IMG/VR virus record: IMGVR_UViG_2859821903_000002
Coordinates: 1-32,444 of that record
Length of the DNA stretch: 32,444 bases
Origin: a virus
Lineage: Duplodnaviria > Heunggongvirae > Uroviricota > Caudoviricetes
Reading direction: 5' to 3' (one strand)
This document shows positions 3,001 to 6,000 of this stretch, piece after piece (within the stretch, counting starts at the first letter, position 1; the number at the start of each line of letters is the position of its first letter). The position numbers were made by a program.

Positions 3001-6000
3001 GGCATGAAGTTGTCGAAGGAGAAATGCGACCAGGTTAACGCCATTGAACGTGATAAGGCGCTGGCATGGGTGGAGAAAAACATCAAAGTGCCGCTGACCG
3101 AACCCCAGAAATCGGGGATCGCGTCATTCTGTCCGTACAACATTGGCTCCGGTAAGTGTTTCAGCTCAACGTTTTACCGGAAACTGAACGCCGGAGACCG
3201 GAAAGGTGCATGTGCTGAAATTCGTCGCTGGATATATGACGGCGGCAGGGACTGTCGGAACCGCTCAAATAACTGTTACGGGCAGGTATCGCGGCGTGAC
3301 CAAGAGAGCGCGCTGGCGTGCTGGGGTATCGACAGGTAGCAGAATATTTTGCTGAAAAATGACGCTTGCTCACGCGGGCGGATAACACGAAGTCCTGTGA
3401 ACTGGCAAAACCTAAGTGAATAAAAGTAAAAACCCCGTTTGTTGGCAGCAAGCGGGGTTTTGTGTTTTCTGACCTTGAGTAAGGCAAGGGAGAAATTATG
3501 GTGAGGGAGGTGCTTTCCCTGTGAGGAAGTATAAAAGATTCTTTCTGAGGTTGTCCATTATGAAAGGCATTGAAGTGGAGACGCCAGCCAGTCTGGATTT
3601 AACAAGAGCGGCAGCTTTTGCCATTCGTATTGTGGCAATTGCTGTTCTGGTCTGGGCAATCCGTTGGTGGTGATATGAACCGTGTTCTGTGCGTGGTCAT
3701 CATTGCCCTGCTGGTGGCCTGTGGTGCGCTTAGTCTGGGGCTGAATCATTACCGTGTTCACGCCATCATCTACAAAGAGCAGCGCGATAAAAAAGCCAGT
3801 GAGCTGGAGCTGGCGAACGCGACAATTACTGATATGCAGATACGCCAGCGTGATGTCGCTGCACTTGATGCCAGATACTCGAGGGAATTAGCCGATGCGA
3901 GAGCTGAAAATGAAACTCTGCGTGCTGATGTTGCCGCTGGTCGTAAGCGCCTGCGGATCAACGCCACCTGCTCCGGTACCGTGCGTGAAGCCACCGGCAC
4001 CTCCGGCGTGGATAATGCAACCGGCCCCCGACTGGCAGACACCGCTGAACGGGATTATTTCATCCTCAGAGAACGGTTGATGACAATGCAGAAGCAGCTG
4101 GAAGGGGCACAGGACTATATCCGCACTCAGTGCCTGAACTAAGTTTTGCTGATGCGCCGTATCGTCGCTGTATTCCCTCATTAACAGAGACCGCAGCCCG
4201 ACAGGGAGACTCCTCTGCGCGAGTGTGCGGGGATAATCAAAAACGATACACACCGGGGTTTACCACGTTAACGGAGCGCGGCGTTGTCCCCTCATAGTCG
4301 CCAGTCCGGTGCGATGGTGGAAGAAACAGGACGATGTGTTACCTCGCAAGCCCTGTTATGTCATGTGTCTGATTTGTGATTTAAGTCGGATAATTGTCGT
4401 TGCCATTAAGCAGAGGATTGATGACCGACAGGGCGGCATTGTTAGAATAAGACTTATTTTTATCTGTGCGGGGAATGAAAATGAAAAGAAATCTTCCGTT
4501 AATTATTTTGTTGTCTTCTCTGGTTATGGGCTGTACGCAACATAAAACAGATATGCCCCGACAGTTGGTTAAGGCATTACCACAATATCCGGCCTATGCA
4601 GCGGCAAATTATATAAAGGGACGGGTTGATGTGAGGTTTGATATTGGTGCTGATGGTACTGTCACCCGAATTGAGTTTATTCGTTCAGAGCCGCACCATC
4701 TGTTTGATGAGCAGGTTGTAAAGGCGATGGCAAAATGGCGATTTGAGAAGGACAGGCCGTGTAAAGGCGTGAAGAAAACGTTTATCTTTAGTCCTTCTGC
4801 ACCCTGATTATTTCATCAGAAATTAATTATCACTCTGTTGTTATTCTGTACATCCCGGCAGGGTAAGTCTTGTTCCGTCGGATATGAAGATGAAATATTG
4901 TTGGAGGACAGTGGGTACCTGCTCCTGTAACCGAACGTTCATTTCTCGTTATTTGTCATGCTGGCCGGGCAACAGATGCGTTGCATCTGTTGCCAGCCTT
5001 CTCCTGCAGGCTTCAATAACCCACGCTGAAAAGTTACCGGACCCTTTATGCTCAAGGGCGATGTTGATCTGTTCAATCATGTGATTGGGGAAACGGATAT
5101 TGCGGGTTGTGGTTCTGCGGGTACGGTTTTTCGATGACATATTTATTTCCTTTACTGATTGCCATATGACGGGGATTTTACATGGCTGAGCTTCGTACAC
5201 TCCAGAGCAGAATCAAAACACTGAATACCCGACGGGTGAATATTCTGAAGGGTGAACAGCGTCGTGTCAGTGGCAGTGCACGTGTTTCCCTCAAGCGTCA
5301 TATCTGGCTCAGGGACGCCGGGCCGTGCCGTCTCTGTGGTCGTGTGGTTGACCTCTGTGACAGTGAACTCGATCACCGAATTGCACTTCAGTTCGGTGGT
5401 GGTAATGAGGAGACGAATCTCTGGACGCTCTGTACCGAATGCCATCGACAAAAGTCTGCTCGTGAAGCGGCGAGTGATATGCCGGACCCGACGCTGCCGG
5501 AGGTGTCCGGAGGTAGTGGCAGAGAGGACGACATCATCGGACTGTAACCCGACCCCGGGGGGTATCATCCGGCGTAAAAAACGATCGCTTTGGACACCGC
5601 GCCCCCTCTCACGCAGAGAAAAAATTCCCGTTTCAGGCCAGTTAACATGTTAACTGGCTGTCCGGGCATTTTTGCGGTTTTTATCTTTATTATTCAGTTT
5701 GTTGTGCGAAAAAAATGTTAACTGGCTTTTTCAGAAAATGTTAACCAGGCAGCAGTTAACATTTGCGGCATGAGACGCCGGGAAAAATGGGCTGAACCAT
5801 ACCCGGCTGAGTGCGTTCTGGACCCGGGAGGAGGCTGTGCTGACAACGCAAAAACGAAAATTTGCGCTGGCGCTCATGTCCGGGAAAAACAAAACAGCGT
5901 CAGCCATTGCCGCCGGTTATTCGGCGAAGACCGCCAGGGTTAAAGGCTCGCAGCTGGCAAAAGATCCGGAGGTGCTCGCGTTTATAGCCCGTAAACAGTG

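What the first reader, a model, noticed from the sequence alone, without database searches (positions are those of the whole stretch)
5638..5762. ATGTTAAC repeat array upstream of the small terminase gene
A 20-bp perfect palindrome CCAGTTAACATGTTAACTGG is followed within 125 bp by three further ATGTTAAC-containing sites in both orientations, between the HNH endonuclease gene and the small terminase gene. This is where cos and terminase-small-subunit recognition elements lie in HK97-like phages; the array could be those sites or an operator for an unidentified regulator.
Basis: partly seen in the sequence, partly recalled or inferred. Interest (0 to 1): 0.5.

Follow-up and report, generated by a model that had tools for sequence, protein, structure and literature searches.

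The report
Phage packaging-signal repeats beside cos
The five ATGTTAAC repeats are most likely the docking sites that tell a Shiga-toxin-type E. coli prophage's packaging enzyme where its genome starts; this is an expected kind of element, but this family's version has not been described and comes with unusually clear comparative evidence.

Summary
Five exact ATGTTAAC copies lie at 5641-5762 and nowhere else in 32 kb (0.58 expected). Two of them form a 22-bp perfect palindrome.

The window is a BP-4795-like lambdoid E. coli prophage. In a ~95% identical induced phage, Lys8385Vzw, PhageTerm mapped a 10-nt 3' cohesive end. That end corresponds to window 5598-5607, so the array lies +34 to +155 inside the left genome end, upstream of terS (+230). 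This is the position cosB holds in lambda.

- **Conservation:** across 36 unique related sequences the 8-mer cores are almost invariant while the spacers diverge.
- **Concerted change:** in one lineage all five sites switch together to ATGTTTAY, along with two changes at the TerS recognition helix.
- **Satellites:** two phage satellites that lack this terS carry the cut site plus all five cores.
- **Distant relatives:** the first site overlaps the terS start codon, and the inverted pair sits inside the terS linker coding sequence.

Best reading: a cosB-like array read by the helix-turn-helix domains of an SF6/SPP1-type (not HK97-type) small terminase. Binding itself is inferred, not shown. I rate it a new member of a known kind, of moderate interest.

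The parts
5182..5547 (+). HNH endonuclease gene. This is the accessory nuclease of HK97-type cos packaging.
   Evidence: Pfam PF01844, E=3.7e-8. It is 60-67% identical in most distant relatives that share the cos region.
5556..5565 (.). Conserved G-run (CCCCGGGGGG) about 45 bp upstream of the cut. Role unknown; possibly a cosQ-like or termination element.
   Evidence: A run of at least 7 G at the same distance occurs in nearly all relatives, including those with 41-49% TerS identity.
5582..5587 (.). Conserved CGATCG, which contains a Dam GATC site, upstream of the cut.
   Evidence: Conserved in many, though not all, relatives. Function not tested.
5598..5607 (+). cosN cohesive-end sequence CGCGCCCCCT (inferred 10-nt 3' overhang). 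The left virion end begins at 5608.
   Evidence: The Lys8385Vzw record ends ...GGACACCGCCCCCCCT and starts CTCACGCAGAG. PhageTerm reported 3' cohesive ends with cos = CGCCCCCCCT (PMC7946995). The window sequence differs at 1 of these 10 nt.
5608..5633 (+). Universally conserved right flank of the cut, CTCACGCAGAGAAAAAATTCCCGTTT, containing an A-tract at +12. Likely a TerL/HNH contact or bend; a further TerS contact is possible.
   Evidence: Nearly invariant in all lineages, down to 41% TerS identity. In HK97 the TerS minimal site is +15..+29 and contains an A-tract (PMC11331095).
5637..5658 (.). Sites 1 and 2: a 22-bp perfect palindrome made of back-to-back ATGTTAAC (5641-5648 on the - strand, 5647-5654 on the + strand), at +34..+47 from the end.
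   Evidence: A motif pair occupies the same distance from the cut in every lineage examined.
5659..5714 (.). AT-rich spacer with T-tracts 9-10 bp apart (5669-5673, 5678-5682) and an IHF-like match, ATTCAGTTTGTTG, at 5692-5704. Proposed bend between the site clusters.
   Evidence: T-tract positions (+62, +71, +79) and ATTCAnnnnnTTR are conserved in diverged lineages. The IHF match is not statistically informative on its own.
5715..5722 (+). Site 3, ATGTTAAC (extended match AAAATGTTAACTGGCT, 5712-5727).
   Evidence: It lies at +110 (hexamer start) in the window, L025 and L112, and at +109 in L062 and L027.
5738..5745 (+). Site 4, ATGTTAAC. Left arm of the inverted repeat ATGTTAAC-N9-GTTAACAT.
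   Evidence: The homologous inverted repeat ATGTTTAY-N9-GTAAAC lies inside the terS linker coding sequence of short-spacer relatives.
5755..5762 (-). Site 5, ATGTTAAC on the - strand (GTTAACAT on the + strand). Right arm of the inverted repeat.
5837..6397 (+). terS, a small terminase of the Terminase_2 (SF6/SPP1) type with an N-terminal HTH DNA-binding domain. The predicted recognition helix is residues 33-41.
   Evidence: Pfam PF03592. The profile hits the SF6 TerS and its DNA-binding domain (3zqp, 2cmp, 4zc3) at E about 1e-3. In the AlphaFold model residues 1-50 have pLDDT above 90, with helices at 4-14, 19-25, 33-41 and 44-56.
6394..8054 (+). terL, a large terminase of the HK97 gp2 family. 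It is interrupted by a 1-nt deletion in a G-run near 7727.
   Evidence: PF03354. 25% identity to HK97 gp2, E=2e-6. Frameshift relative to BP-4795.

Best explanation
The ATGTTAAC array is the cosB-like recognition half of this prophage's packaging origin. The terminase cuts at cosN (CGCGCCCCCT, 5598-5607; 10-nt 3' overhang), leaving 5608 as the left genome end. Immediately inside that end lie five 8-bp sites: a back-to-back pair at +34..+47, a single site at +108..+115, and an inverted pair with a 9-bp gap at +131..+155. An AT-rich spacer with phased T-tracts separates the first pair from the rest. I propose that the sites are read by the N-terminal helix-turn-helix domains of the ring-forming small terminase encoded just downstream, an SF6/SPP1-type Terminase_2 protein. 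Multi-site binding, helped by the bend, would position TerL and the HNH nuclease on cosN. They would nick there, and packaging would start rightward. What is shown: the position relative to a mapped end in a close relative, purifying selection on the cores, concerted change of all five sites, and retention of the array in satellites that lack this terS.
For: 1. **Position.** In Lys8385Vzw, which is ~95% identical and was sequenced from induced virions, the ends map to the sequence homologous to 5598-5607|5608. This puts the array between cosN and terS.
2. **Selection.** Thirty-six unique long-spacer sequences were chosen by the cos anchor, not by the motif. In sites 3-5, 20 of 24 core columns are invariant, against 41 of 169 other columns in 5630-5836 (Fisher p=3e-8). 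In sites 1-2, 10 of 14 are invariant (p=5e-4). All eight variable core columns come from one sequence.
3. **Concerted change.** That lineage (L112, L118-L121, L026) has the same layout and spacing (+34, +42, +110, +134, +149), but all five sites read ATGTTTAY.
4. **Match to the TerS helix.** The motif type tracks residues 32 and 35 at the start of the predicted recognition helix. KTARVKG goes with GTTAAC in the window, L027 and L115 lineages and in the distant L022, L023 and L097. KSARCKG goes with GTTTAY. KTARVKGW goes with GTTACA. The L027 TerS is more diverged overall (about 64% identity) than that of L112 (about 77%), yet it keeps both T32/V35 and GTTAAC.
5. **Satellites.** The E. coli 042 island (int, RepA, protease-MCP fusion, cos) and a PICI in strain 7_33_46A carry cosN plus all five exact cores at about 80% overall identity. 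Neither has a Terminase_2 terS, an HNH gene or any gene downstream of the array.
6. **Family-wide layout.** In 46 unique short-spacer relatives (TerS 41-49% identical) GTAAACATGTTAAC lies at +33..+46 and overlaps the terS start codon. In 43 of the 46, the inverted pair ATGTTTAY-N9-GTAAAC is embedded in the terS linker, where it encodes NV(Y/N)TPAVN. The Val codons are fixed as GTT and GTA in all 43, and the Y/N replacement equals the T/A change in the motif.
7. **Lack of support for other roles.** There is no + strand promoter match, no Rfam hit at the array, and the RNA fold has z=-0.88.
Against: No binding or packaging experiment exists for this family; everything rests on comparison. cosB and the TerS DNA-binding domain are adjacent and inherited together, so their correlation alone does not prove contact. 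A universally conserved A-tract block at +1..+26 sits where HK97 TerS binds (+15..+29), and it could be the true or an additional TerS site. SF6/SPP1-type TerS has shown mostly weak or non-specific DNA binding in vitro (review PMC9611059). The cos end is transferred from a relative and was not mapped for this prophage, whose terL and capsid genes are frameshifted.
Confidence: 0.7

Rival explanations
1. The array is part of the packaging signal but is read by something other than TerS: TerL, the HNH protein, or an unidentified phage protein. TerS would instead bind the conserved A-tract block at +1..+26, as in HK97.
For: The +1..+26 block is conserved in all lineages, and the TerS N-terminal domain is also highly conserved. 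HK97 TerS binds at +15..+29, over an A-tract.
Against: TerS is the sequence-specific subunit in every characterised terminase (established knowledge; PMC9611059). The motif variants track TerS residues 32 and 35 rather than overall divergence. HNH is more conserved (60-67% identity) than the variable motifs would predict. A host factor cannot explain concerted changes that differ between lineages.
Confidence: 0.13
2. The array is an operator for a transcriptional regulator of terS or the late genes, for example the adjacent DUF3950 (YlcI/YnfO) ribbon-helix-helix-like protein at 4949-5200(-).
For: Repeated and palindromic 8-mers are typical of operators. A small, possibly DNA-binding DUF3950 gene lies next to HNH here and in close relatives.
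Against: The scan found no + strand promoter match. In lambdoid phages the late genes are read through from pR' (established knowledge). The satellites keep the array with no gene downstream. The array sits at a fixed distance from the cos cut in all lineages. No DUF3950 homologue was found in the ~1 kb held upstream of HNH in any distant genome locus that conserves the motifs. The gene is annotated as frameshifted in L109 and L112, where the array is intact.
Confidence: 0.06
3. The repeats are a neutral relic. The spacer would be the decayed 5' part of an ancestral terS, whose start codon was ATGTTAAC and whose linker held the inverted pair. The copies would then be leftovers without present function.
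For: In 46 unique short-spacer relatives terS starts with ATG TTA ACA at +39/+40, and the inverted pair is coding sequence. By eye, window 5738-5770 resembles the ancestral terS 5' end; this was not tested statistically.
Against: The cores are invariant while the surrounding spacer varies in 128 of 169 columns. All five sites change in concert in one lineage. The satellites retain the array. Spacing is conserved to within 1-2 bp, and where insertions occur they are 10 bp long and carry an extra site. An origin from coding sequence is plausible; lack of present function is not.
Confidence: 0.05
4. The repeats are replication-origin iterons or a partition-type repeat array.
For: Direct and inverted short repeats flank an AT-rich stretch.
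Against: The array has a fixed position relative to the mapped cohesive end. There is no adjacent initiator gene. In the satellites the RepA helicase gene lies several kb away. In relatives the motif pair overlaps the terS start.
Confidence: 0.02

Closest known systems
Lambda cosB (R3-I1-R2-R1, bound by gpNu1 with IHF)
   Same: It is a set of short repeated TerS sites between cosN and the terS start, split by a bend or IHF locus, and it is needed to initiate packaging. Satellites and PICIs carry or alter it (PMC6739421). The geometry here is similar: cosN, then sites from +34 to +155, then terS at +230.
   Different: The TerS here belongs to Terminase_2, not Nu1. The ends are 10-nt 3' overhangs, not 12-nt 5' overhangs. 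An HNH protein is part of the machine. The motif differs in sequence, length and arrangement, with a palindrome and an inverted pair.
HK97 cos and its TerS site (+15..+29; PMC11331095)
   Same: The TerL family is the same. An HNH gene sits at the genome's right end. Both have a 3' 10-nt cos, and both have an A/T-tract just inside the left end.
   Different: HK97 gp1 is unrelated to this TerS (E=1). It recognises one 15-bp site by threading the DNA through its ring. Here there are five repeated sites spread over about 120 bp and an HTH-type TerS.
SPP1/SF6 pac region (G1P TerS contacts on both sides of the cut, partly inside gene 1)
   Same: The TerS family is the same (Terminase_2). There are multiple contact points around the cut (PMC9611059). 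In the short-spacer relatives sites lie inside terS, and a GTAAACAT also lies at -33, upstream of the cut.
   Different: Those phages package by the headful mechanism without defined cohesive ends or an HNH partner. Here cleavage is exact cos cleavage, and in the window lineage all sites lie outside the gene and on one side of the cut.
Satellites that carry the helper's cos (P4, cos-type SaPIs with HNH-dependent helpers)
   Same: The E. coli 042 island and the 7_33_46A PICI carry this cos, including the array, without the cognate terminase genes.
   Different: Those cases concern other helper families. Mobilisation of these islands by BP-4795-type phages has not been shown.

Membership tests
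cosB-type TerS recognition array of a cos phage (functional class) | Lies next to the cohesive-end cut site, on the side packaged first and upstream of or overlapping terS | tested here: met
   The end mapped in Lys8385Vzw corresponds to 5607/5608. The array spans +34..+155 and terS starts at +230.
cosB-type TerS recognition array of a cos phage (functional class) | Repeated short motifs under purifying selection, independent of coding | tested here: met
   The cores are almost invariant while the spacers diverge (p=3e-8). All five sites change in concert in one lineage.
cosB-type TerS recognition array of a cos phage (functional class) | Acts in cis for packaging, so it is sufficient on foreign DNA or satellites | tested here: inconclusive
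   Two satellite types retain cosN plus the array without terS. No transduction assay exists.
cosB-type TerS recognition array of a cos phage (functional class) | Specifically bound by the cognate small terminase | not testable with these tools
   The only evidence is covariation with recognition-helix residues 32 and 35.
Lambda cosB sensu stricto | TerS of the Nu1 family with a winged HTH | tested here: not met
   The TerS matches PF03592 (Terminase_2), not PF07471.
Lambda cosB sensu stricto | IHF site between the R elements | tested here: inconclusive
   ATTCAGTTTGTTG at 5692-5704 has 1 mismatch to WATCARNNNNTTR and its position is conserved. However, there are 50 such matches in the window against about 31 expected.
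HK97-type cos packaging module | TerL of the HK97 gp2 family, plus an adjacent HNH endonuclease and 3' cohesive ends | tested here: met
   PF03354 and PF01844. TerL versus HK97 gp2 gives E=2e-6. The 3' ends come from PhageTerm on a close relative.
HK97-type cos packaging module | TerS homologous to HK97 gp1, recognising a single site at +15..+29 | tested here: not met
   BLASTP gives E=1. HK97 gp1 has no Terminase_2 hit. The conserved A-tract block at about +9..+22 is only a positional resemblance.
SPP1/SF6 pac system | Terminase_2 TerS with an N-terminal HTH domain | tested here: met
SPP1/SF6 pac system | Headful packaging with imprecise ends | tested here: not met
   Defined cohesive ends were reported for the close relative.

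The most novel reading that the evidence does not exclude
The family may expose a readable recognition code for SF6/SPP1-type small terminases. Residues 32 and 35 at the start of the recognition helix (T/V, S/C, S/S) would set the central bases of a GTWAAC-type site. Arrays of five sites would co-evolve with the protein. The sites may also have moved during evolution. In most Enterobacterales relatives they overlap the terS start codon and are written into the disordered terS linker as Val-Asn or Val-Tyr codons. In the E. coli Stx-phage lineage they have been moved out into a dedicated non-coding cosB. Satellites, including a PICI that also holds two lambda-type cosN sequences, may capture this cosB so they can be packaged by this helper family.
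Probability: 0.4. Interest if true: 0.6.

Novelty: new member of a known kind. Interest (0 to 1): 0.4.

Why it matters
This prophage family includes many Stx1-, Stx2a- and Stx2c-converting phages. Its cos region is present in 1287 of 5426 complete E. coli genomes, with up to 7 copies per genome. Knowing the packaging signal helps in three ways:
- predicting which prophages and satellites can still be mobilised;
- recognising orphan cos sites on islands;
- designing cos plasmids or transduction assays for this group.

How HTH-type ring small terminases recognise DNA specifically remains an open question (PMC9611059). Natural site and protein variants that differ at one base and two residues offer a direct way to test it.

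Tried and rejected
- **Genome search with one protein:** the related-loci scan of genome contigs with the single TerS sequence found nothing. It worked once I used an alignment.
- **GTAAAC-variant search:** a viral contigs pattern scan for the GTAAAC-variant inverted repeat found nothing. I reached that lineage through E. coli genomes and the look-up of encoding contigs instead.
- **Biased first test:** my first conservation test selected sequences by the palindrome itself. I repeated it with sequences anchored on the cos cut.
- **RNA element:** rejected. There is no Rfam hit at the array and the fold gives z=-0.88.
- **Promoter:** the only consensus match in the array is a weak one on the - strand.
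- **Small ORF 5647-5721 (25 aa):** it has no Shine-Dalgarno sequence and stops after 4 codons in the satellite copy. I regard it as a by-product of ATG and TAA inside the motif.
- **IHF site:** not statistically supported on its own.
- **DUF3950 protein as the binder:** disfavoured, because no homologue was found in the held flanks of the distant relatives.
- **Literature:** no paper in the held library contains GTTAACATGTTAAC.
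Full report
**1. The observation**

ATGTTAAC occurs five times in the window, all within 5641-5762, against 0.58 expected. The first two copies are back to back and form a 22-bp perfect palindrome, GCCAGTTAACATGTTAACTGGC, at 5637-5658. Site 3 (5715-5722) repeats the right half of the palindrome as a 12-mer, ATGTTAACTGGC. Sites 4 (5738-5745) and 5 (5755-5762, - strand) form an inverted repeat with a 9-bp gap. Upstream lies an HNH endonuclease gene (5182-5547). Downstream lie a small terminase gene (5837-6397), then TerL and a prohead protease-capsid fusion.

**2. Context**

The region is 93-97% identical to BP-4795, phage 2851, YYZ-2008 and dozens of Stx1a-, Stx2a- and Stx2c-converting prophages. 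It occurs in 1287 of 5426 complete E. coli genomes. TerL is distantly related to HK97 gp2. The small terminase is unrelated to HK97 gp1. It is a Terminase_2 protein whose profile matches the SF6 small terminase and its DNA-binding domain. AlphaFold gives a confident four-helix N-terminal domain, with the HTH at helices 19-25 and 33-41, followed by a low-confidence linker.

**3. Where the genome ends are**

Lys8385Vzw has the same TerS at 93.6% identity and was sequenced from induced virions. PhageTerm classed it as a cos phage with 3' cohesive ends and gave the cos sequence as CGCCCCCCCT, at the end of the record (PMC7946995). The record ends ...GGACACCGCCCCCCCT and begins CTCACGCAGAGAAAAAATTCCC. 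In the window the homologous sequence is CGCGCCCCCT at 5598-5607, so 5608 is +1 of the left end. GTTAAC hexamers then begin at +34, +42, +110, +133 and +148, and terS starts at +230. The array therefore occupies the place that cosB holds in lambda.

**4. Selection on the cores**

I collected 36 unique long-spacer sequences, anchored on the cos cut rather than on the motif. They came from IMG/VR, E. coli genomes, phage records and assemblies.

| Region | Invariant columns | Fisher p vs other columns |
|---|---|---|
| Sites 3-5 (core) | 20 of 24 | 3e-8 |
| Sites 1-2 (core) | 10 of 14 | 5e-4 |
| Other columns, 5630-5836 | 41 of 169 | (reference) |

All eight variable core columns come from one sequence. 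Site flanks vary freely (TGGC, AGGC, CGAC, CACC, TACC), and spacers diverge to about 75% identity. Site positions stay within 1-2 bp. The only length change between the sites is a 10-bp insertion that itself carries an extra GTTAAC.

**5. Concerted change**

The divergent sequence belongs to a lineage (L112, L118-L121, L026) with the same five-site layout. Its sites read TATAAACATGTTTATA, ATGTTTAT, ATGTTTAC and GTAAACAT. The same A-to-T change has occurred in every site. The spacers remain alignable, so the array predates the split and the changes are parallel. That is hard to explain without a co-evolving reader.

The TerS of this lineage differs at residues 32 and 35, which sit at the start of the predicted recognition helix (KSARCKG rather than KTARVKG). 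L027 is more diverged overall (about 64% identity) but keeps T32/V35 and the GTTAAC sites. I predicted that the P0010 lineage (KTARVKG) would have GTTAAC-type sites, and it does. A further lineage with KTARVKGW has AAGTTACAC twice at +33 and +45, plus further GTTACA/GTAACT copies within its terS linker. One caveat applies: cosB and the TerS DNA-binding domain are adjacent and co-inherited.

**6. Distant relatives**

In Salmonella phage FSL SP-016 and in 46 unique loci from other Enterobacterales (TerS 41-49% identical) the cos core is conserved: G-run, GTAAACATCGATCG, GGACACCGCGCCCCCT|CTCACGCACAGAAAAAATTCCC. GTAAACATGTTAAC lies at +33..+46, the same distance as the window palindrome, but there the ATG is the terS start codon.

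A second element lies inside the terS linker in 43 of the 46: aATGTTTAY-ACCCCAGCR-GTAAAC, which encodes N-V-(Y/N)-T-P-A-V-N. This is the same inverted repeat with a 9-bp gap as window sites 4 and 5. In all 43 the first Val codon is GTT and the second is GTA. The Tyr/Asn replacement corresponds exactly to the T/A alternative in the motif. A Morganella relative has GTTAACC three times at 12-bp spacing within its terS linker.

The window lineage thus looks like a version in which sites otherwise embedded in terS lie in about 190 bp of non-coding DNA, with terS now starting GTG CTG ACA.

**7. Satellites**

E. coli 042 carries a roughly 9.5-kb island between cspD and clpS. It holds an integrase, a RepA helicase, a protease-capsid fusion, a 93-aa ORF and then this cos. 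It has cosN and all five exact ATGTTAAC cores at about 80% overall identity, but no Terminase_2 terS, no HNH gene and no gene after the array. A PICI in strain 7_33_46A has the same cos. It also has a Nu1/Rpp-like gene and two lambda-type cosN sequences. About 50 of the 5426 genomes hold this satellite-type copy. An element that borrows a helper's packaging machinery needs only the cis signal. Retention of the array here therefore argues for a packaging role and against regulation of terS.

**8. Alternatives**

- **Promoter or RNA element:** there is no + strand promoter match, no Rfam family at the array, and no unusual RNA folding.
- **DUF3950 protein as reader:** no homologue was found in the held flanks of the distant relatives that keep the motifs.
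- **Competing TerS site:** a universally conserved block at +1..+26 with an A-tract resembles, in position only, the HK97 TerS site at +15..+29. It may be a TerL/HNH contact or an additional TerS contact. This is the main uncertainty about which protein reads what.
- **IHF site:** the IHF-like match at 5692-5704 and the T-tracts 9-10 bp apart are conserved in position but are not significant on their own.

**9. Verdict**

The array is real, is under selection, and is part of the cos packaging signal. It is most likely the multi-site target of the SF6-type small terminase. This is an expected kind of element, but it has not been described for this family: no paper in the held library contains the sequence. 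The comparative evidence is unusually informative. I rate it a new member of a known kind, with interest 0.4.

Noticed in passing
window 1510-2723 (ALIL pseudoknot at 1791-1907): There is an IS3-family insertion sequence here: two overlapping ORFs (1510-1836, 1833-2723) with the Rfam ALIL frameshift pseudoknot (120 bits). It lies upstream of the lysis and terminase region.
   Followed up: partly
window ~7727 and ~9742: TerL (6394-8054) and the prohead protease-capsid fusion (8118-10054) each have a 1-nt deletion in a G-run relative to BP-4795, which splits both ORFs. Either the prophage is defective or these are homopolymer sequencing errors.
   Followed up: partly
window 4949-5200 (-): A DUF3950 (YlcI/YnfO) gene whose sequence looks like a ribbon-helix-helix protein lies next to the HNH gene. 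Close relatives annotate a YlcI/YnfO gene in the same position and the E. coli 042 satellite also carries one, but no homologue was found in the held flanks of distant relatives that share the cos. Function unknown.
   Followed up: partly
window 5556-5565 and 5582-5587: A G-run (CCCCGGGGGG) and a CGATCG containing a Dam site lie 20-50 bp upstream of the cos cut. The G-run is conserved across nearly the whole family and CGATCG in many members. They may be cosQ-like or termination elements. The GTAAACAT found at -33 in distant relatives is degenerate here (GTAAAAAAC).
   Followed up: no
window 5647-5721 (+): A 25-codon hydrophobic ORF (MLTGCPGIFAVFIFIIQFVVRKKC) runs from the ATG of site 2 to the TAA of site 3. 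It is also open in L027 but stops after 4 codons in the satellite copy, and it has no Shine-Dalgarno sequence. It is probably a by-product of the motif.
   Followed up: partly
L108 9313-18700 (E. coli 042, NZ_CP042934.2, about 939.3-948.7 kb): A phage-satellite-like island lies between cspD and clpS. It holds an integrase, an HTH regulator, a YlcI/YnfO gene, an Icd-like gene, a RepA helicase, a protease-capsid fusion and a 93-aa ORF. It ends with the BP-4795-type cos and all five ATGTTAAC sites, and it has no terminase genes.
   Followed up: partly
L111 4518, 5385 and ~6050-6230 (E. coli 7_33_46A, NZ_CP074819.1): This PICI has a Nu1/Rpp-like gene and two lambda-type cosN sequences (GGGCGGCGACCT, in opposite orientations). 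It also has a third cos, of the BP-4795 type, with the full array. It may therefore be able to use two helper families.
   Followed up: partly
L004-L021 and L068-L107, about +246..+267 from the cos cut (inside terS): In the short-spacer relatives the only conserved peptide in the otherwise variable TerS linker, NV(Y/N)TPAVN, coincides with a DNA inverted repeat, ATGTTTAY-N9-GTAAAC. This suggests the conservation acts on the DNA rather than on the protein.
   Followed up: partly
window 4466-4807 (+): A lipoprotein-like ORF with a TonB C-terminal domain (PF03544) lies between the lysis genes and the packaging genes. It looks like a moron-type cargo gene.
   Followed up: no
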